Assembly (NCBI GenBank): GCA_033697325.1
Contig: GCA_033697325.1_4854.1
Source: a phage
Length of the DNA stretch: 46,335 bases
Reading direction: 5' to 3' (one strand)
Every line of letters starts with the position of its first letter. The first letter of the stretch is position 1. The position numbers and the translations under genes are program-made. Shown piece by piece: positions 814 to 44,597 of the stretch. The notes below the pieces were generated by a model. It did not search any database and was not told the origin of the DNA. It saw nothing but the letters and a program-made list of their open reading frames with translations.

Positions 814-1028
814 AATCATCCTGATAATAACGTGCATCGTAATTGATGCACGTTAAACCTACCTGATAGTTATTATCCCTTCCTGACGGTTCCATACTCT
901 GAACAAGCATTGCTACAAGTCAGTTGGTAGTTGTTTCTTTGCTAGGAATTTTAGTTAAGAAGCCATCAGCATTACAGTCTCTTGGGACGACAATATTTGT
1001 TTCAGGAACTTATGCACCAGAATTTCGA

Positions 1029-1656: not shown

Positions 1657-4565
1657 AATACCCCCCAATACATGCCTTTAACGTTGAAATATTTACTACC
1701 CTTATCTCTTCTGAACATAATCACTGATGGCGCGACAGCCTCATCTCTTTTAGATATTGCATCATCAATTGACATGTTATGTTCACCAAAGCACTTCTCA
1801 CAAAATTCTTCCCACTCCTTCTTCATCCATTCCTTTTCAGAGTTTGGATTGTAGAACTTGCTAACAAAAAATGGCTTCTGGTCAATAGCAAATTTTACGT
1901 GCACCAAATCTTCACCACTTGAAACGTAATGCTTCATGATGTTCATCATGGTTACGCTTGATTGCTTGGTTGCATAAGGAGACGAATCAAGCCTGTCAGC
2001 TTCTTCCTTTAGCTTTTGGTTGGGGTCAATGATTTCAGCGCCGCATGATGTGCAGTTTCTTGCCGCTATATCATTTTCAAATCCACAATCAGGACACTCT
2101 TTCACCGACCACTTATAAGTACACCTGTGCATTTCCCTTAATGGCCCGTGCATAACGTAGTTTTTACATCTTCTGCCAAAATGAGCAGGCATAGGTTTGC
2201 TTCCAATTTTTTCACCTGACTTATCAAAAATATCAATCATCACCCTGTCACCAGCCAAATCAAGCCAGTAGCCTTCTTTGTCAACTTCCAGATTTTCCGG
2301 ATTTGGGCGCGCGCCAAATTCATTGATAAAGCCACACAACGGGCATTTTACATCCATTGGTACTGATGGTTTTTTCCTTGTTGCCTTTATTTCTGGGGTA
2401 AACAAGTCTCCAGTTTCTGAAAAGTGACGTTGAATATTTCCGGCGTAATCGCTGACAAGAAAGTCTTCCTTTCCCTCATAAAGACGCGTCCCTCTGCCAA
2501 TTATTTGCTGGTAGAGTCTTGGTGACTCTGTTGCTCTCATTACTGCTATATGATCACAATGAGGAACATCCACCCCTACAGTAAGGATATTCTGATTAAC
2601 GATGTATTTAACTTTTTGTGCCTTGAAGTCTGATATTGCCTTGTTGCGATCTGCTGTTGGCATATCACCAAAAACATAACTATAAGAACCGGGAGGAAGT
2701 GACTCCATTATCTCCATAGCGTGTTTCTTGGTACTGGCAAAAATCATCGTTCCGCGCCGATTAACAGAGCGACGGATAATATCTTCAACAATTCGTGATG
2801 TTTTCCTTCCCTTGCCAACCATCGCCTTTTCAACTGAAGCTGTTGTATACCGACCCAACTTATCCTTTTCAAGACAAGACGTATCATATTCTTCAAAAAC
2901 AGGCTCTGTAACTGGTGGCGTAAGATATCCATTTTCAATGAGGAATTTAGCCTCAAGCTCATAAACAACCTTATCATAATATGGGTCAATGGCAGTTTCT
3001 TCATCCGTAGGGCCATCGAGGTAGTGCTCTTTGTAGATGTATCCAGTTCCAAGGCGGTAAGGAGTGGCGGTCATTCCAATAACACGCAGTTTTTGATTGC
3101 GACGCTTCATTTCATTAATAATAAATTTTATGGTTGGCGTGATACCATCGCACTCGTCAATAATGACAGCACCATACTTATCACCAAACATCTCTATTGA
3201 GTTCTTTATTGTAACTGGTGAACCAAACACCACAGGATGACGCAGGTTTTTGGGGCCAGCCTTTGCACTGAACATGCTGGCTGGTTCTCCTGTTAGAGAA
3301 AGATAACGCTGCCTGTTTTGCACAACTAACTCACTTGTTGGGGCAACACACAAAACGCGCTTGCCAGTATTTTTAAAAACCCAATCGGCGATTGATGCAA
3401 CAACAACGCTTTTTCCGCTGTTATGGTGAATCGTGAAATCGCTGGTCAAATACAGATGGTCCCCATCTAAAGTAAATCCATAGAAATCATCTTCTGGTAA
3501 CTCCTCCACCTTAAAACCAGTACAGAGAACATCTTTTTTTTGCTTTCTCTCTTGTGCCACCTTGTAATCAATAAGCGGTTTAAGCATATCGATATCACCA
3601 CTGATACTTACTCTGTACTTTTTGGATACAAAAACACCGTCAAGAGTCGCGTCTCCTACGCCAATATACGCAGCCAGACCTAGTGATCTCGCAACAAACG
3701 CAATATCATCAGCAAGACGACCGGATACAGTGGTTATTTCGTAATAGTTATTGCCAAGATACCCATCAGTATCAACCAAGCCGGAGAGCAGCTCTATACG
3801 CTGTTCTTTTGACGCTATTTTGTAGCACTCAGGTATAAACACAGTGTAAGAGTTTGTGTATTGCAAACCAAGTTTTTTCACTTCATTAAGAATAGCGTTG
3901 CTTTTGTGTTTTCCTCTACCATTTGTTGCCATAAGATTGTGTGTATTTGTGCCATTTTTAACAGAGTCATTAACACAACAACCAAATGACTCTGACACGC
4001 TTTTGAAGTAGTTTATTAGTACATCCTCAGTTCCTGAAAATGTAACGCTACCGTTAGCTGTGGAACCGTCACCAAGAATCATCCCAACAAAACGCGCAGG
4101 TAAAGCCTGTTTAGCCTCTGGGAAGATAACACCTGTTCTGCATAGCTTATGTATATGCTTATGCCATTTTGCTGAACTTTCGTACTCAGCGACAGTTTCG
4201 TCGATGTACGACACCTCTTGAGATGGATATTTATTCACCTGCTTTTGCTTTACTCTCTTGAGATGAAGAATGTGATTCTTGTTAACAACAAAAGAATCAC
4301 CTTTAACTGGTGTAATTTTTCTCATCTCTTCTCGCCCACGGCACAGAGCAAGCACATTTCGTGGCTTGCTGTCCGGGCCCATTAATCTATCTCCGACTGT
4401 AACATCTTCAACGCTCTTGACGCTTCCATCAAACATAATGACTTTCGTTCCTTTGGCGTGACACCCTGTAGGCAAGATGATCATGCACGATGAAACGCTT
4501 GAACGAATATGACCTATAACAGAATCAACAGCTTCTTGTTGGTATGTTCTAAGCTGTACTTTCAT
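1653..4565 (-). CDS. SF2 (DEAD/DEAH-like) DNA helicase, interrupted by an intein; C-terminal zinc-ribbon region
   Basis: Motif I LPTG|SGKS is split by the intein. DExD-like VIIDECDG and MTATPYR motifs. C-terminal CPLCG...CPDCG...CTSCG. Start chosen at ATG 4565-4563, preceded by SD gagagga. Confidence 0.85.
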   Translation of the reverse strand: MKVQLRTYQQEAVDSVIGHIRSSVSSCMIILPTGCHAKGTKVIMFDGSVKSVEDVTVGDRLMGPDSKPRNVLALCRGREEMRKITPVKGDSFVVNKNHILHLKRVKQKQVNKYPSQEVSYIDETVAEYESSAKWHKHIHKLCRTGVIFPEAKQALPARFVGMILGDGSTANGSVTFSGTEDVLINYFKSVSESFGCCVNDSVKNGTNTHNLMATNGRGKHKSNAILNEVKKLGLQYTNSYTVFIPECYKIASKEQRIELLSGLVDTDGYLGNNYYEITTVSGRLADDIAFVARSLGLAAYIGVGDATLDGVFVSKKYRVSISGDIDMLKPLIDYKVAQERKQKKDVLCTGFKVEELPEDDFYGFTLDGDHLYLTSDFTIHHNSGKSVVVASIADWVFKNTGKRVLCVAPTSELVVQNRQRYLSLTGEPASMFSAKAGPKNLRHPVVFGSPVTIKNSIEMFGDKYGAVIIDECDGITPTIKFIINEMKRRNQKLRVIGMTATPYRLGTGYIYKEHYLDGPTDEETAIDPYYDKVVYELEAKFLIENGYLTPPVTEPVFEEYDTSCLEKDKLGRYTTASVEKAMVGKGRKTSRIVEDIIRRSVNRRGTMIFASTKKHAMEIMESLPPGSYSYVFGDMPTADRNKAISDFKAQKVKYIVNQNILTVGVDVPHCDHIAVMRATESPRLYQQIIGRGTRLYEGKEDFLVSDYAGNIQRHFSETGDLFTPEIKATRKKPSVPMDVKCPLCGFINEFGARPNPENLEVDKEGYWLDLAGDRVMIDIFDKSGEKIGSKPMPAHFGRRCKNYVMHGPLREMHRCTYKWSVKECPDCGFENDIAARNCTSCGAEIIDPNQKLKEEADRLDSSPYATKQSSVTMMNIMKHYVSSGEDLVHVKFAIDQKPFFVSKFYNPNSEKEWMKKEWEEFCEKCFGEHNMSIDDAISKRDEAVAPSVIMFRRDKGSKYFNVKGMYWGVL
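3420..4463 (-). mobile_element. Intein (348 aa) with LAGLIDADG homing endonuclease domain inserted in helicase P-loop
   Basis: Begins with Cys right after LPTG and ends ...TIHHN followed by Ser of SGKS. Two LAGLIDADG-like motifs (VGMILGDGS and LSGLVDTDGYL). Confidence 0.8.
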
Positions 4566-6524: not shown

Positions 6525-6553
6525 TTGACGAAAATTTTTTTTGAGTTCATTAT
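6525..6553 (+). promoter_or_regulatory. Putative sigma70-like promoter for Cro-like gene
   Basis: TTGACG, 17-nt spacer, CATTAT. Confidence 0.35.
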
Positions 6554-6582
6554 TGCTGCATACAGATAGCAGAGGTAAACAC

Positions 6583-6825
6583 ATGAAAAGCATCGCAGAA
6601 CAGATAAGAGAAATGGAACAGACGAAGCTGTCAGAGCTGATTGATTATGTTGGAGGGCAATCACAACTGGCAAGGTTTCTTGGTGTGTCAAAACAGGCTG
6701 TTAATCAGTGGGTGTCAAGAGGAAGAATTAGCGCTACAGCAGCAATTGATGCCGATAAACTTACTGGTGGAGTTTTCAGAAAGGAAGATTTAAGGCCAGC
6801 CGTTACAAAATGGATTGTTAAATAA
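6583..6825 (+). CDS. Cro/CI-type helix-turn-helix transcriptional regulator
   Basis: HTH segment QSQLARFLGVSKQAVNQW. SD agaggtaa before ATG 6583. Own terminator downstream. Embedded on the opposite strand within the leftward replication operon. Confidence 0.65.
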   Translation: MKSIAEQIREMEQTKLSELIDYVGGQSQLARFLGVSKQAVNQWVSRGRISATAAIDADKLTGGVFRKEDLRPAVTKWIVK

Positions 6826-10821: not shown

Positions 10822-10850
10822 TTGACGTAGAATCATCGTTGATGTAGATT
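10822..10850 (+). promoter_or_regulatory. Promoter for rightward small-gene operon, carrying two copies of the recurrent motif
   Basis: TTGACG(TAGA), 17-nt spacer, (TGATG)TAGATT. Confidence 0.5.
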
Positions 10851-20020: not shown

Positions 20021-20032
20021 AATTTGATGTAG

Positions 20033-20063
20033 ATACTATGCACCACCACTCAATCTACGTCAA
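20033..20063 (-). promoter_or_regulatory. Leftward promoter with motif pair
   Basis: Minus strand TTGACG, then 17-19 nt, then CATAGT or TAGTAT. Confidence 0.4.
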
Positions 20064-20546
20064 CATTTGTTTCCCATGATTGCTATGAAATCCAAACCGT
20101 CTCTCTGCGTTTTTTCTCGCTGACACCGCAGAATCCTTTGAATCAAATCCGCCAAGGTTAATGTGCTTCCCGTTAACCGTTATCCTTGCAACCCACTTGC
20201 GTCTACTCTTGCACCAATGAACACCAGTCACTCCTGACGTATTCATTCTGTGTGTCTTTTGATTTTTCTGGTTTTCAGCGTGACTCACCAGTCTTAAATT
20301 CTCAATCCTGTTATCAAGCCTGTTATGGTTTATGTGGTCAATCTCCATGCCTTCAGGTATCGGGCCGTTATGCATTTCCCATATGATTCTGTGTGCAAGA
20401 TAGCGCTTACGATTATAGCGAACAATCCTGTATCCGAAATTTGTTACAGAGCCAGCAATGTCTCCGGCTTTTTTAGACGCTAGTGGAGGCATCCTCCATA
20501 GCAGATTGATGCCGTCATAATAGAAAACATCACTCCAATCTTTCAT
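20055..20546 (-). CDS. HNH homing endonuclease with AP2-type DNA-binding domain
   Basis: IDHINHNRLDNRIENLRLVSHAENQ HNH motif; C-terminal GVHWCKSRRKWVARITVNGKHINLGGF AP2-like. SD gggag. Confidence 0.75.
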   Translation of the reverse strand: MKDWSDVFYYDGINLLWRMPPLASKKAGDIAGSVTNFGYRIVRYNRKRYLAHRIIWEMHNGPIPEGMEIDHINHNRLDNRIENLRLVSHAENQKNQKTHRMNTSGVTGVHWCKSRRKWVARITVNGKHINLGGFDSKDSAVSARKNAERRFGFHSNHGKQMLT

Positions 20547-20574
20547 GTTGACTACTCCCAATATCCATACCTTC

Positions 20575-20603
20575 AATCTACATCACCAACTTATCTACGT
20601 CAA
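20575..20603 (-). promoter_or_regulatory. Leftward promoter for the HNH gene
   Basis: Minus strand TTGACG, 17-nt spacer, TAGATT; two motif copies. Confidence 0.5.
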
Positions 20604-23463: not shown

Positions 23464-23506
23464 TGACGTTTCTACATCACTTAGTCAATACTTATTGATG
23501 TAGATT
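23464..23506. promoter_or_regulatory. Divergent regulatory region with inverted motif pair
   Basis: TTGACG at 23464, tctacatca at 23471-23479, gatgtagatt at 23497-23506; lies between leftward and rightward operons. Confidence 0.35.
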
Positions 23507-30254: not shown

Positions 30255-30287
30255 GTCCGTCGCTCCTTTCTTATATCTACATCACTC

Positions 30288-30316
30288 ATATTGCGGTCAT
30301 TAGGTATCTACGTCAA
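30288..30316 (-). promoter_or_regulatory. Leftward promoter for PP-loop gene with motif pair
   Basis: Minus strand TTGACG, 17-nt spacer, CAATAT; motif copies at 30275-30284 and 30306-30315. Confidence 0.35.
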
Positions 30317-30901: not shown

Positions 30902-31071
30902 TTCACCTTAATCATGTGCTGTTTTGCAACCTTCAGGCATTCTTCAAAAATGCCACCTTTCTTAGCGCTCTGATTGCGCTTGTAATACTGAATTGCCGCA
31001 TCAATTGCCATCTGGTCGATATCAGGCAGCTTGGTGCGAAGTTGTTTTTCGATGAATTGTTCTGGTGTCAT
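30898..31071 (-). CDS. Hypothetical small protein (57 aa)
   Basis: Translationally coupled on both sides; below the ORF track cutoff. Confidence 0.4.
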   Translation of the reverse strand: MTPEQFIEKQLRTKLPDIDQMAIDAAIQYYKRNQSAKKGGIFEECLKVAKQHMIKVK

Positions 31072-31880
31072 CACATCTTCTCCAGAATTGCCATAACCTC
31101 GTGAATGTCAGCAACAGGAATCTGGATAAATTCCTCATCCTCTGCCACAACATGGCCAGCAGGTAGAATCACGTGTTCTGCCGGCTTCAATAACTCAATC
31201 AGGCGGTCTACTGGCTTAATCTTTTTCGACTTCAGCACTTTTGCTGTGACCTTGTCTTTGCCTTGCGCCTTCGCTTCTTCCACGGCCTCGTCGATAACTT
31301 TTACCGCATCATCGCCATGCTCGCGCGTTACTGCTACGGCATTTGCATAGCTGATTTGTCCGGCACTGATGCGCGCTTTCACTTCCGCTGGCACATCACC
31401 CAGCGACAGGTGCATTTGCACGTCAGATACTGAGCGACCTACCTTTTTGGCTATTTCCTCGTTGGTCCAGCCAAATCCTTTCAGTCGCGTGTAAGCCTTT
31501 GCGCGCTCAAACGGGTCAAGTTGCTTGCCCTGACTTGATGACACCATGAAGGCGATTTTGTCCGCCTCGTCGCCAGTGAAATCCTTACATTCAATGCGAA
31601 CGATTGGCGCACCACGCTCAATGGCACGCAATGCGCCGAGATAGCGGTGCTGACCGTCAAGAATGCGGATTCCCTTCTCATCTGGAATAACTGTTAACGC
31701 TGGTAATGGCTGACCGGACTCCCAGCACTGCGCGAAATATTCGACATGCTGTTCATCTGCTTCACGGATGTTGTATCCCGGCTCAAGATAGATTTGCTCC
31801 ACTGGAACGAGATAGGTTTTGTTTACCGCGATGCCGTTGCGCGTCTCTTTGTCTGAATAGATTTTGCTGAGTGTTTTCAT
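31071..31880 (-). CDS. DGQHR-domain / ParB-like protein with HTH
   Basis: Exact DGQHR motif in IRILDGQHRYLGAL; HTH-like WTNEEIAKKVGRSVSDVQMHL; SD aagga. Confidence 0.7.
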   Translation of the reverse strand: MKTLSKIYSDKETRNGIAVNKTYLVPVEQIYLEPGYNIREADEQHVEYFAQCWESGQPLPALTVIPDEKGIRILDGQHRYLGALRAIERGAPIVRIECKDFTGDEADKIAFMVSSSQGKQLDPFERAKAYTRLKGFGWTNEEIAKKVGRSVSDVQMHLSLGDVPAEVKARISAGQISYANAVAVTREHGDDAVKVIDEAVEEAKAQGKDKVTAKVLKSKKIKPVDRLIELLKPAEHVILPAGHVVAEDEEFIQIPVADIHEVMAILEKM

Positions 31881-32063: not shown

Positions 32064-32098
32064 CACCTCTAACATTTATTGTTGTTTCTACGTCACTA

Positions 32099-32127
32099 AC
32101 TATAAACACCTCATCAATCTACGTCAA
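32099..32127 (-). promoter_or_regulatory. Leftward promoter for the island operon
   Basis: Minus strand TTGACG, 17-nt spacer, TATAGT; motif copies at 32086-32095 and 32117-32126. Confidence 0.5.
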
Positions 32128-39954: not shown

Positions 39955-39982
39955 AAGAAGCCCCTTATGGGGCTTTGTTTTA
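39955..39982. terminator. Bidirectional intrinsic terminator
   Basis: aagcccc-ttat-ggggctt hairpin with A-run and T-run. Confidence 0.65.
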
Positions 39983-40630
39983 AATCTTATCAGCGCATTT
40001 ACGTACGACCCTCGGTATCGTTTCTTTCAGTTCATCCCATGAGTTGACCGCTTCCATATCCAGAAGTGTGACAAGAGACTTCTGGATATCACTGCGTAAC
40101 TGGTTAGTTTTTGCATCCTGAGAGTCCCATGTGTCAAACCCAGTAACTTCACGGATATCTATCGACTCCTTGACTGACTTTGCCACCTGAATGAAATGCC
40201 CACTATGACCAATTCTACCCTCAGTACGTTCAAGCATTCTGCTGACGGCAGCATTAAGTTCCACGAAACTTACCGCACCAATATTTCGCAACTCAACCTG
40301 TCTCTGCGTAATGAATCGGTCGATGACAAGGAAATGGAAATATGTGCTGTATTGCTCTGCTATATATACAGCCAGATGCAAGCAAGCAAAAGTGGAACCA
40401 TTCCTGCCTCGCGTTGATTTTATTGCGCTATCGATACCAAGTTGCTTTTCGCACTCAGCCTTGAAATCCTTAAATGCATCAGTTGCCATTACCTGTCGTA
40501 TTTCTCTTGTCCTCATCCCATTATCCAGTCTCCAGCGGTTCATCTGGTTAACAAGCTCATTAACGTTAATAAAATTTTCACGGTCGAAAGTGATCTCTCC
40601 GTACGGAAACTCTAATGTTTGCAGTTTCAT
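39980..40630 (-). CDS. KilA-N domain protein (antirepressor/kil-like accessory gene)
   Basis: N-terminal FINVNEL...NGSTFACLHLAVYIAEQYS resembles KilA-N; SD aggaga. Confidence 0.5.
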   Translation of the reverse strand: MKLQTLEFPYGEITFDRENFINVNELVNQMNRWRLDNGMRTREIRQVMATDAFKDFKAECEKQLGIDSAIKSTRGRNGSTFACLHLAVYIAEQYSTYFHFLVIDRFITQRQVELRNIGAVSFVELNAAVSRMLERTEGRIGHSGHFIQVAKSVKESIDIREVTGFDTWDSQDAKTNQLRSDIQKSLVTLLDMEAVNSWDELKETIPRVVRKCADKI

Positions 40631-40660
40631 GATTATTTCTCCTGTTTAATGTGACAATTA

Positions 40661-40684
40661 AATTCTACATTCAAATGTAGAATT
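40661..40684. promoter_or_regulatory. Perfect palindrome AATTCTACATT-CA-AATGTAGAATT (candidate operator) overlapping the leftward promoter
   Basis: 11-bp inverted repeat with 2-bp spacer built from the TCTACAT core of the recurrent motif; TAGAAT -10 and palindromic TTGCAA -35 (18-nt spacer) on the minus strand. Confidence 0.45.
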
Positions 40685-40749
40685 TTTGCAAGCTATTTTA
40701 GATGGCAAAACATCATGGAACGAATGCATTTTAAACCAGCTCATGATGG

Positions 40750-40777
40750 AGTGGTGAAACTTGCGCCGTGCTAAAAT
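40750..40777 (+). promoter_or_regulatory. Rightward extended -10 promoter for tail tip genes
   Basis: TGcTAAAAT at 40769-40777, 27 nt before ATG 40805. Confidence 0.35.

Positions 40778-40804: not shown

Positions 40805-44597
<3,793 letters not shown>

What the first reader, a model, noticed from the sequence alone, without database searches (positions are those of the whole stretch)
40661..40684. Perfect 11-bp inverted repeat built from the motif core next to the KilA-N gene
AATTCTACATT-CA-AATGTAGAATT is a perfect palindrome whose half-sites contain the TCTACAT core of the recurrent motif. It overlaps the -10 of the leftward KilA-N promoter and lies upstream of the tail tip operon. This supports reading the motif as a dimeric operator half-site.
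Basis: seen in the sequence. Interest (0 to 1): 0.55.

Follow-up and report, generated by a model that had tools for sequence, protein, structure and literature searches.

The report
Promoter-embedded operator of a KilA-N gene
The palindrome is a real, strongly conserved 26-bp protein-binding site inside the promoter of a small mobile phage gene, most likely the site where that gene's own DNA-binding product shuts the promoter off; it is not part of the genome-wide TCTACRTCA motif.

Summary
The palindrome is real and slightly longer than reported: perfect 12-bp arms (40660-40671 / 40674-40685) around a 2-nt centre. Only 2% of shuffled windows hold one this good.

It fills the space between the -35 (TTGCAA) and the -10 (TAGAAT, inside one arm) of the leftward promoter of a KilA-N/APSES-fold gene (39980-40630). 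So it has the position of a repressor operator.

In about 45 related loci the same 26-bp slot holds three dyad classes. They differ by mirrored changes: NN = TC, GG or AC in AAAT-NN-TAYAT...ATRTA-NN-ATTT. Each class goes with one variant of the gene's helix-turn-helix/wing segment, with no exception. Four further class predictions were all met. Arms stay identical between lineages whose synonymous sites are saturated.

The gene with its promoter is a mobile cassette. It is almost the only protein shared between this phage's genus and Jerseyvirus, and it sits at three different genome positions.

Best reading: negative autoregulation by the KilA-N protein. This is inferred, with no binding data.

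The link to the recurrent motif fails. That motif is TCTACRTCA (14 copies) and the arms lack its invariant CA. AG11 has the palindrome and no motif copies. SB28 has 14 motif copies and a different palindrome. The nearness to the tail operon is incidental.

This is an ordinary kind of element, in a tidy polymorphic form.

The parts
40660..40685 (.). 26-bp dyad operator (class A): AAATTCTACATT-CA-AATGTAGAATTT
   Evidence: Perfect 12-bp arms. 2% of shuffled windows hold an equal one. Identical arms in distant relatives. Mirrored covariation across classes.
40660..40671 (.). Arm next to the gene; it contains the -10 hexamer of the leftward promoter
   Evidence: This arm is identical in all class-A loci fetched, including the two variants whose other arm carries changes.
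40674..40685 (.). Arm that abuts the -35 hexamer
   Evidence: The only natural changes seen in class A lie at positions 4-5 of this arm (loci of P0011 and P0010).
40672..40673 (.). Non-conserved centre (CA on + strand)
   Evidence: The centre varies and flips between relatives: TG, CA or TA in class A; CTAT, ATAG, TCAT, TTAT or ATAA in class B.
40686..40691 (-). -35 hexamer TTGCAA of the KilA-N gene promoter
   Evidence: Consensus scan. In the alignment of relatives the -35 hexamers (TTGACA, TTGACG, TTGACT, TTGATT, TTGCAT) lie immediately upstream of the 26-bp slot.
40662..40667 (-). -10 hexamer TAGAAT, inside the dyad
   Evidence: Consensus scan. In every class the gene-proximal arm reads TA-NN-AT: TAGAAT, TACCAT or TAGTAT. 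The transcription start has not been mapped.
40639..40643 (-). Shine-Dalgarno AGGAG, 8 nt before the ATG
   Evidence: Read from the sequence.
39980..40630 (-). Gene for a 216-aa protein: KilA-N/APSES-fold N-terminal domain (about aa 1-95) plus a near-invariant helical C-terminal domain
39957..39976 (.). Bidirectional intrinsic terminator between the tape-measure gene and the 3' end of the KilA-N gene
   Evidence: Terminator scan on both strands. Annotated the same way in phage ASO78B.

Best explanation
The palindrome is a dyad-symmetric operator built into a sigma-70 promoter. The left-pointing KilA-N gene is a self-contained unit with its own promoter, ribosome-binding site and a bidirectional terminator, set against the flow of the late genes. 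The 26-bp dyad starts right after the -35 hexamer and ends 2 nt past the -10 hexamer. A dimer bound there would keep RNA polymerase off the promoter. The most likely binder is the gene's own product, through its N-terminal KilA-N/APSES winged-helix-like domain, which would make this negative autoregulation. Shown here: the anatomy, the conservation, the mirrored variation, the covariation with the protein's variable segment, and the absence of any other shared phage protein. Inferred: actual binding, repression, the identity of the binder and the transcription start. A further inference concerns the contacts. The variable helix-turn-helix residues (aa 40-59, 66-73) would read the variable inner bases (positions 5-6 and 9 of each half-site). 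The invariant RGRNG wing would read the invariant outer AAAT/ATTT.
For: 1. Position. TTGCAA-18 nt-TAGAAT lies on the minus strand with the dyad between and over the hexamers. Annotators of phages Jersey and AG11 independently placed a sigma-70 promoter on the homologous palindrome.
2. Purifying selection. Synonymous sites are saturated between lineages of the same class (window vs L007: 73 of 88.8 synonymous sites differ in the C-terminal part; SETP7 vs SB28: 65.7 of 86.5). Yet the arms are identical, 24/24 and 22/22, while noncoding DNA further upstream is 37-50% identical in both pairs; the sequence next to the dyad is about 70-80% identical. A perfect 12-bp repeat inside the gene (40056-40089) is not conserved, at 6-11 of 12, and serves as a control.
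3. Alternative dyads in the same 26-bp slot and register. Class A is AAAT-TC-TACAT.., class B AAAT-GG-TATAT.., class D GAAT-AC-TATAT.., and the changes are mirrored in the other arm. 86% of cells are paired against 25-46% in slid controls. 7 of 12 pairs change on both sides. 0 of 500 shuffles reach the covariation score.
4. Covariation with the neighbouring protein's variable segment. GTRE[IL]RQVMAT goes with A, GFKHLRQLMTT with B, and G[ETD]KNLSQLL[SA]T with the TACTA-type sites. This holds in about 45 loci without exception. 4 of 4 further predictions were met. In phages with two paralogues, each copy has a promoter of its own class: in TUMS_E19 (B+D) both copies carry their cognate dyad; in S142 (C+D) the D copy has the D dyad and the C copy the dyad-less C promoter.
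5. The variable residues fall on helices H44-48 and H51-64 and strand 70-72, next to the wing of an APSES-like DNA-binding fold.
6. Elimination. Between the window and class-A Jerseyvirus phage EcoPhCCP1, the KilA-N protein (89%) is practically the only well-conserved protein. The window's Cro-like and ParB-like DNA binders are absent there, and the Jerseyvirus HTH proteins are absent from the window.
7. No copy of the generalized dyad was found in any Enterobacteriaceae genome of the species collection, and there is no second copy in the phage. This fits a single-target regulator.
Against: There is no binding or expression data of any kind. The operator and the variable codons are less than 250 bp apart, so linkage alone could produce some of the covariation. 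Many loci are close relatives, so there are only about 8-10 independent lineages. AG11-like phages carry a perfect class-A dyad next to a class-B protein. They also have a class-B promoter/operator upstream, but the proximal promoter may still work (-35 is TTGGTT in two of the phages). Strict cognate autoregulation does not explain that orphan site. The commonest Jerseyvirus class (C) has no 26-bp dyad, only a 6-bp inverted repeat, and a 28%-identical Vibrio phage homologue has none. The arrangement is therefore not obligatory for the family. The Pfam KilA-N hit is just under the gathering score. Mirrored changes would equally preserve a hairpin.
Confidence: 0.6

Rival explanations
1. Cognate cis-acting decoy or immunity site rather than, or as well as, a transcriptional operator. 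The polymorphic KilA-N protein acts on phage DNA in trans, for example against co-infecting relatives. The matching dyad on the phage's own genome titrates or neutralises it, as the aba DNA element does for the KilA-N-like protein BstA. Orphan dyads of another class would then give cross-protection.
For: There is a precedent: a KilA-N-like protein with a variant-specific, co-encoded DNA element (PMC8585504). The DNA-binding segment evolves 4-10 times faster at protein level than the C-terminal domain (dN 0.21-0.63 against 0.04-0.07), as in specificity or immunity pairs. Perfect orphan class-A dyads occur in class-B phages, and stacked remnants occur in L117/L118. The cassette moves between unrelated phage genera.
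Against: No sequence similarity to BstA models was found (PADLOC scan). The aba element overlaps the gene start and relies on terminal direct repeats, not a promoter dyad. The exact fit of the dyad between -35 and -10 is explained more simply by promoter control. The orphan site in AG11-like phages lies in a tract 90-97% identical to a class-A phage, so it may be a recent recombination leftover. No phenotype is known.
Confidence: 0.15
2. Operator for another regulator: a host transcription factor, or a different phage protein, binds the dyad. The KilA-N protein is only the regulated cargo.
For: The position in the promoter does not say who binds. AG11-like phages keep a class-A site without a class-A protein. 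Class-C genes do without a dyad.
Against: No other phage protein is shared by all carriers of one class. The generalized dyad is absent from Enterobacteriaceae genomes in the species collection. A single host factor would not explain three dyad classes that track the neighbouring protein's variable segment.
Confidence: 0.12
3. Structural element. The inverted repeat works as a DNA cruciform or an RNA hairpin (terminator, RNA stability element, or a recombination hotspot) and not as a protein recognition site.
For: Mirrored changes preserve pairing. The centre is free to vary and flips (TG/CA, CTAT/ATAG), as hairpin loops do. The region is recombinogenic, with tandem promoter modules. The hairpin folds better than shuffles (DNA -9 kcal/mol, z -3.7; RNA about -11, z about -3).
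Against: The stem is AT-rich and weak, with only 2 G-C pairs in 12, and the terminator scan does not call it. It lies upstream of the predicted start of its own transcript, and a strong bidirectional terminator already insulates the cassette. Class-D sites have only 8-10-bp imperfect arms with 6-10-nt gaps. The P0033 site has two TACTACA half-sites in direct orientation, which suits protein half-sites and not a stem. There is no Rfam match. The constant 26-bp length and register relative to -35/-10 is a promoter property.
Confidence: 0.08
4. The palindrome is a dimeric version of the recurrent TCTACAT motif, and the same regulator binds all copies.
For: A shared 7-mer TCTACAT. Both kinds of site lie in intergenic regions between divergent genes. 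A 7-mer coincidence inside a 26-bp site is rare a priori (about 1e-3, own estimate).
Against: The motif is TCTACRTCA in 14 of 14 copies, and the arms lack the CA. AG11 has the palindrome with no motif copies. SB28 has 14 motif copies with a GGTATAT-core palindrome. The palindrome class follows the adjacent gene and not the genome's motif content.
Confidence: 0.04

Closest known systems
Promoter-embedded dyad operators of autoregulated phage and plasmid repressors (for example lambdoid Cro/CI operators and P22 Arc/Mnt operators; from general knowledge)
   Same: A dyad-symmetric site overlaps the -35/-10 region of a sigma-70 promoter. Operator and DNA-binding specificity diverge together in allelic classes. 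The module is exchanged by recombination.
   Different: There is a single site and not an array. The presumed binder has a KilA-N/APSES fold, not a lambda-type HTH or a ribbon-helix-helix. The host phages are annotated as virulent Jersey-like siphoviruses with no immunity region. One arm doubles as the -10 hexamer, with the specificity dinucleotide at -10 positions 3-4.
BstA / aba (KilA-N-like abortive-infection protein with a cognate DNA self-immunity element; PMC8585504)
   Same: A protein with a KilA-N-type domain is paired with a short co-encoded DNA element at the 5' end of its own locus. Variant proteins have variant cognate elements.
   Different: No detectable sequence relation was found. 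The aba element is 63 bp, overlaps the coding start and depends on terminal direct CCCGCC repeats. BstA is prophage-encoded and about 300 aa. Here the element is a promoter dyad in lytic phages, and no defence phenotype is known.
APSES DNA-binding domains (Mbp1, Swi4, Bqt4), the eukaryotic relatives of KilA-N
   Different: APSES factors bind short non-palindromic sites such as ACGCGT (general knowledge). Here the target would be a 26-bp dyad bound by a dimer. Sequence identity is 16%.
Morons: autonomous promoter-gene-terminator units inserted between phage late genes (Hendrix and colleagues; general knowledge)
   Same: The unit has its own promoter and terminator. Its orientation is opposite to the flanking late operon. 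Its position varies between phages, and it is shared between otherwise unrelated genomes.
   Different: Classic morons are described in temperate phages and expressed from the prophage. This cassette sits in lytic phages and carries its own operator.

Membership tests
Repressor operator within a sigma-70 promoter | Dyad symmetry of the site | tested here: met
   Perfect 12+12 bp. 2% of shuffled windows hold an equal one.
Repressor operator within a sigma-70 promoter | Overlap with core promoter elements so that binding excludes RNA polymerase | tested here: met
   TTGCAA-18-TAGAAT with the dyad between and over the hexamers. The register is the same in all classes. This rests on consensus only; the TSS is not mapped.
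Repressor operator within a sigma-70 promoter | Conservation beyond the neutral expectation | tested here: met
   Arms are 24/24 and 22/22 identical between lineages with saturated synonymous sites, while noncoding DNA further upstream is 37-50% identical (the sequence next to the dyad about 70-80%).
Repressor operator within a sigma-70 promoter | Site specificity co-varies with a DNA-binding protein | tested here: met
   Three dyad classes match three classes of the adjacent protein's HTH/wing segment, with no exception in about 45 loci. 4 of 4 predictions were met. Linkage is a confound.
Repressor operator within a sigma-70 promoter | Demonstrated protein binding and repression | not testable with these tools
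   Needs EMSA or footprinting and reporter assays.
KilA-N domain proteins (Pfam PF04383) | Profile match above the curated threshold | tested here: inconclusive
   22.3 bits against the gathering score of 23.8, E=1.2e-4, residues 13-105.
KilA-N domain proteins (Pfam PF04383) | APSES-like fold | tested here: met
Recurrent TCTACRTCA motif of this genome | Matches the 9-mer shared by all copies | tested here: not met
   The arms read TCTACATTC / TCTACATTT. All 14 copies read TCTACRTCA.
Recurrent TCTACRTCA motif of this genome | Co-occurs with the motif across related genomes | tested here: not met
   AG11 has the palindrome and 0 motif copies. SB28 has 14 motif copies and a different palindrome.
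BstA/aba self-immunity pair | Protein homologous to BstA | tested here: not met
   No match to any named defence family, BstA included, in PADLOC-DB; only a weak hit to an uncharacterised candidate family, PDC-S22, E=0.0023.
BstA/aba self-immunity pair | DNA element overlapping the gene start, with terminal direct repeats | tested here: not met
   The element here is an inverted repeat that ends 29 nt upstream of the ATG. The aba features are taken from PMC8585504.
BstA/aba self-immunity pair | Variant-specific cognate protein-DNA pairs | tested here: met
   By covariation only.
Intrinsic terminator | G+C-rich stem followed by a T run | tested here: not met
   2 G-C pairs in 12. The scan does not call it, but it does call the true terminator at 39957-39976.
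MerR-type spacer operator (activation by DNA distortion) | Over-long 19-20-bp spacer between -35 and -10 | tested here: not met
   The spacer is 18 bp here; in class B it is 15 bp by the Jersey annotators' hexamers or 17 bp by my own reading of TTGACA...TACCAT.

The most novel reading that the evidence does not exclude
The dyad and the hypervariable KilA-N DNA-binding segment form a specificity pair, analogous to BstA/aba or to heteroimmunity. It would be used in competition between co-infecting lytic Jersey-like phages. The protein acts in trans on DNA that lacks the matching site, or on DNA that carries it. The cassette spreads horizontally because of this. Orphan or stacked operators of other classes (AG11-like B+A; L117/L118 C+A/D+D') would be acquired protection against rivals' proteins.
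Probability: 0.15. Interest if true: 0.7.

Novelty: new member of a known kind. Interest (0 to 1): 0.4.

Why it matters
KilA-N is one of the most widespread phage and virus DNA-binding domains, yet I found almost no defined binding sites for it (literature searches). This cassette offers a natural allelic series: three operator classes that differ at 2-3 mirrored bases, paired with three variants of a 30-residue protein segment. That series makes the recognition code of a KilA-N domain directly testable by swaps. It also corrects two annotations. The gene is widely labelled 'amidase' without support. The palindrome should not be pooled with the genome's TCTACRTCA motif when that motif is analysed. 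As a regulatory device, an autoregulated promoter with a dyad operator is ordinary.

Tried and rejected
1. Early on I concluded that the KilA-N protein does not co-vary with the palindrome, because AG11 has a class-B N-terminus next to a class-A palindrome. I withdrew this when the longer upstream region showed that AG11 also carries a class-B promoter/operator.
2. I argued that the proximal class-A promoter of AG11-like phages is dead. This holds only for the three AG11/SB3/TTS6 sequences (-35 TCGGTT). Two relatives have TTGGTT, so I dropped it as evidence.
3. Host-factor search. The scan of one genome per bacterial species with the generalized dyad gave 64 hits, all in unrelated AT-rich genomes and none in Enterobacteriaceae. 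Recalled resemblances to the AcrR, ArgR, LexA, CRP and TyrR boxes did not hold in spacing or sequence. This comparison was from memory and was not tested.
4. The IMG/VR scan found the dyad only in Jersey-like phages, plus 3 unrelated contigs whose matches I did not inspect.
5. The metagenome scan for more relatives gave only 3 loci. The profile search found no members beyond 35 clusters.
6. dN/dS for the variable segment could not be estimated, because synonymous sites are saturated.
7. Other DNA-binding candidates were excluded because they are absent from other carriers of the same dyad class. These were the Cro/YdaS-like protein at 6541-6825, the ParB/KorB-like protein at 31071-31880, and Jersey gp50, gp53 and gp22.
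8. Rfam gave no match. The PDB sequence search gave nothing significant.
9. Literature searches found no description of this site or gene.

Full report
**What the window is.** The 1.5 kb around the finding is 91-94% identical to Salmonella and Escherichia siphophages of the Vi II-E1 group (Macdonaldcampvirus). The best hit is phage gmqsjt-1. The window is collinear with whole genomes of that group.

**The observation.** The sequence at 40661-40684 is as reported. The perfect dyad is one base longer on each side: AAATTCTACATT (40660-40671), CA, AATGTAGAATTT (40674-40685). In 200 dinucleotide-preserving shuffles of the window, a perfect inverted repeat with arms of at least 12 bp and a spacer of at most 6 nt appeared in 2% of shuffles. 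The 26-mer and its half-site are unique in the window.

**Anatomy.**
- The site lies in the 174-bp gap between a leftward gene (39980-40630) and the rightward gene that starts at 40805.
- On the minus strand the consensus scan finds TTGCAA-18 nt-TAGAAT (40691->40662).
- The dyad begins directly after the -35 hexamer. It contains the -10 hexamer in its gene-proximal arm and ends 2 nt beyond it.
- AGGAG lies 8 nt before the ATG.
- A bidirectional intrinsic terminator (39957-39976) closes the gene against the convergent tape-measure gene.
- The gene is therefore an autonomous promoter-operator-gene-terminator unit set against the late genes.

**The gene product.**
- Pfam KilA-N scores just under threshold (E=1.2e-4, 22.3 against 23.8 bits).
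- The common database name 'amidase' (PHROG 6095, RefSeq) has no support.

**Relatives: the site travels with the gene.**
- 342 phage records encode the protein, nearly all of them Salmonella Jersey-like phages.
- In Jerseyvirus (Jersey, AG11, EcoPhCCP1) the gene and its upstream palindrome lie between the portal and head-morphogenesis genes, not after the tape-measure gene.
- In one metagenomic contig the gene precedes the small terminase subunit gene.
- An all-ORF comparison shows that this protein (88-89% identical) is practically the only well-conserved protein shared between the window and the Jerseyvirus genomes.
- Homology between the window and a class-A Jerseyvirus phage starts about 10-15 nt upstream of the -35 hexamer and ends just past the stop codon.
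- So this is a mobile cassette, and the nearness to the tail tip operon is incidental.

**Three dyads in one slot.** Aligned on the start codon, all loci put a -35 hexamer and then a 26-bp element in the same register:

| Class | Element |
|---|---|
| A | AAATTCTACATT-TG-AATGTAGAATTT |
| B | AAATGGTATAT-CTAT-ATATACCATTT |
| D | GAATACTATA-TCTAGG-TGTAGTATTC |
| D' | AAATACTACGTC-TG-GATGTAGTATTT |

- The common frame is AAAT-NN-TAYAT...ATRTA-NN-ATTT. NN is TC, GG or AC, mirrored as GA, CC or GT.
- The gene-proximal arm always reads TA-NN-AT, that is, a -10 hexamer.
- Counting the 12 dyad pairs over 14 representative sequences, including classes without a dyad, 86% of cells pair. The slid controls give 25-46%. 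7 of 12 pairs change on both sides, and no shuffle of 500 reaches the covariation score.
- The centre is free. It reads TG, CA or TA in class A, and CTAT, ATAG, TCAT, TTAT or ATAA in class B.

**Selection.**
- Synonymous sites are saturated even between lineages of the same class. Yet the arms are identical: 24/24 for window vs L007, and 22/22 for SETP7 vs SB28. The noncoding DNA further upstream is 37-50% identical in both pairs, and the sequence next to the dyad about 70-80%.
- A second perfect 12-bp inverted repeat in the window, inside the gene at 40056-40089, is not conserved (6-11 of 12). This shows what a chance palindrome looks like here.

**Who binds.** The protein's C-terminal 130 residues are nearly invariant (dN 0.04-0.07). 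Residues 36-83 differ strongly between classes (dN 0.21-0.63). The variable residues sit on helices H44-48 and H51-64 and on strand 70-72, next to the invariant RGRNG wing. The segment class predicts the dyad class:

| Variable segment | Site | Loci |
|---|---|---|
| GTRE[IL]RQVMAT | A | 11 distinct |
| GFKHLRQLMTT | B | 14 |
| G[ETD]KNLSQLL[SA]T | TACTA-type | 9 |
| LQPRNLAQILKT (class C) | no 26-bp dyad, only a 6-bp inverted repeat around TATAAT | 9 |

- Four further proteins chosen before I saw their DNA all gave the predicted class.
- Phages with two tandem paralogues (TUMS_E19 with B+D, S142 with C+D) have the matching promoter class in front of each copy: the cognate dyad before the B and D copies, and the dyad-less C promoter before the C copy.
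- Other DNA-binding proteins are excluded. The window's Cro/YdaS-like and ParB/KorB-like proteins are missing from Jerseyvirus carriers of class A. The Jerseyvirus HTH proteins are missing from the window and from SB28.
- The generalized dyad is absent from Enterobacteriaceae in the one-genome-per-species collection.
- By elimination and by covariation, the cassette's own product is the best candidate, which makes the device a negative autoregulator. This is an inference. Linkage (less than 250 bp) contributes to the covariation, and the independent lineages number perhaps 8-10.

**Anomalies.**
- AG11-like phages have a class-B protein, a distal class-B promoter/operator and, in a tandemly repeated 60-bp unit, a perfect proximal class-A dyad.
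- The tract from -71 to +100 is 90-97% identical to a class-A phage. This looks like a recent recombinant, but the orphan site is not explained by strict autoregulation.
- Contigs carrying P0020 stack a class-C promoter remnant, an A/D hybrid dyad with a 5'UTR but no gene, and the working D' module.
- The P0033 site has two TACTACA half-sites in direct orientation.
- These features, and the fast-evolving DNA-binding segment, recall the BstA/aba pair. There a KilA-N-like protein is neutralised by a variant-specific, co-encoded DNA element (PMC8585504). No sequence relation to BstA was detected. I keep this as the most novel reading that the evidence does not exclude.

**The recurrent motif.**
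- The repeated element of this genome is the 9-mer TCTACRTCA: 14 copies against 0.64 expected, nearly all in gaps between predicted genes, several of them between oppositely oriented gene blocks; one or two copies overlap a mechanically called short ORF.
- The palindrome shares only TCTACAT and lacks the invariant CA.
- AG11 carries the identical palindrome and has no motif copy, as does Jersey.
- SB28, a close relative of the window phage, has 14 motif copies at homologous junctions and a GGTATAT-core palindrome.
- The two elements are therefore independent, and the palindrome says nothing about how the motif works.

**Rivals.**
- A hairpin or terminator role is unlikely. The stem is weak and AT-rich and is not called as a terminator. 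It lies upstream of the predicted start of its own transcript. Class-D sites are gapped and imperfect. There is no Rfam match.
- A MerR-like activating site is unlikely because the spacer is 17-18 bp, not 19-20.

**Verdict.** The attribution to the recurrent motif and to the tail operon is rejected. The element is a new, well-defined member of a familiar kind: a promoter-embedded operator of an autoregulated mobile gene. Its main value is as a natural series for working out KilA-N DNA recognition.

Noticed in passing
window 10823-10848, 14630, 20025-20062, 20577-20602, 23471-23504, 30276-30315, 32087-32126, 36798: The true recurrent motif is the 9-mer TCTACRTCA: 14 copies against 0.64 expected. 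Nearly all copies lie in gaps between predicted genes, several at junctions between oppositely oriented gene blocks. They are often paired, either direct (17-31 nt apart) or inverted (23471/23496). SB28 has 14 copies and Jerseyvirus has none. A ParB-HTH/KorB-domain protein (31071-31880, minus strand) is a speculative binder, by analogy with KorB as a global regulator.
   Followed up: partly
window 20055-20576 (-): An HNH endonuclease with an AP2 domain (homing-endonuclease type) is flanked on both sides by TCTACRTCA copies (20025-20062 and 20577-20602).
   Followed up: no
window 39980-40630 (-) and relatives L020, L021, L125, L119: The KilA-N cassette is almost the only protein (88-89% aa) shared between the window's genus and Jerseyvirus. 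It sits at three different genome positions: between the tape-measure and tail genes, between the portal and head-morphogenesis genes, and before the small terminase subunit gene. Its RefSeq/PHROG name 'amidase' is unsupported.
   Followed up: yes
L008/L021 (AG11) about 4003-4089; L106, L107, L123, L124; L117/L118 upstream 230 nt: Promoter/operator modules are stacked in tandem. AG11-like phages carry class B and class A in a duplicated 60-bp unit. P0020 contigs carry a class-C remnant, an A/D hybrid dyad with a 5'UTR but no gene, and the working D' module. The intergenic region is a recombination hotspot.
   Followed up: partly
L103 (TUMS_E19), L113 (S142): Some Jerseyvirus phages carry two tandem paralogues of the gene (B+D, C+D). 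Each copy has the operator class that matches its own DNA-binding segment.
   Followed up: partly
window 40056-40089: A second perfect 12-bp inverted repeat (ATATCCAGAAGT-N10-ACTTCTGGATAT) lies inside the KilA-N coding region. It is not conserved in relatives (6-11 of 12), so it is probably a chance or coding by-product.
   Followed up: yes
window 828-855: A perfect 11-bp inverted repeat, TAACGTGCATC-N6-GATGCACGTTA, lies in an intergenic gap near the left end of the window.
   Followed up: no
window 40769-40777 (+): TGcTAAAAT, an extended -10-like element, points rightward towards the gene at 40805. A similar TGCTAAGAT occurs in class-C Jerseyvirus intergenic regions. It is a possible promoter for the downstream tail genes and lies about 85 bp from the dyad.
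   Followed up: no
window 40511-40513 (codon 40 of the KilA-N gene): The window's protein has Arg at position 40, in the loop before the variable helix. Every relative examined has Gly (or Leu-Gln in class C).
   Followed up: no
window 40672-40673 and homologous centres in L007, L016, L017, L101, L107: The centre of the dyad is found in both orientations between close relatives (TG vs CA; CTAT vs ATAG). This is the pattern expected from flip-flop inversion between the arms.
   Followed up: no
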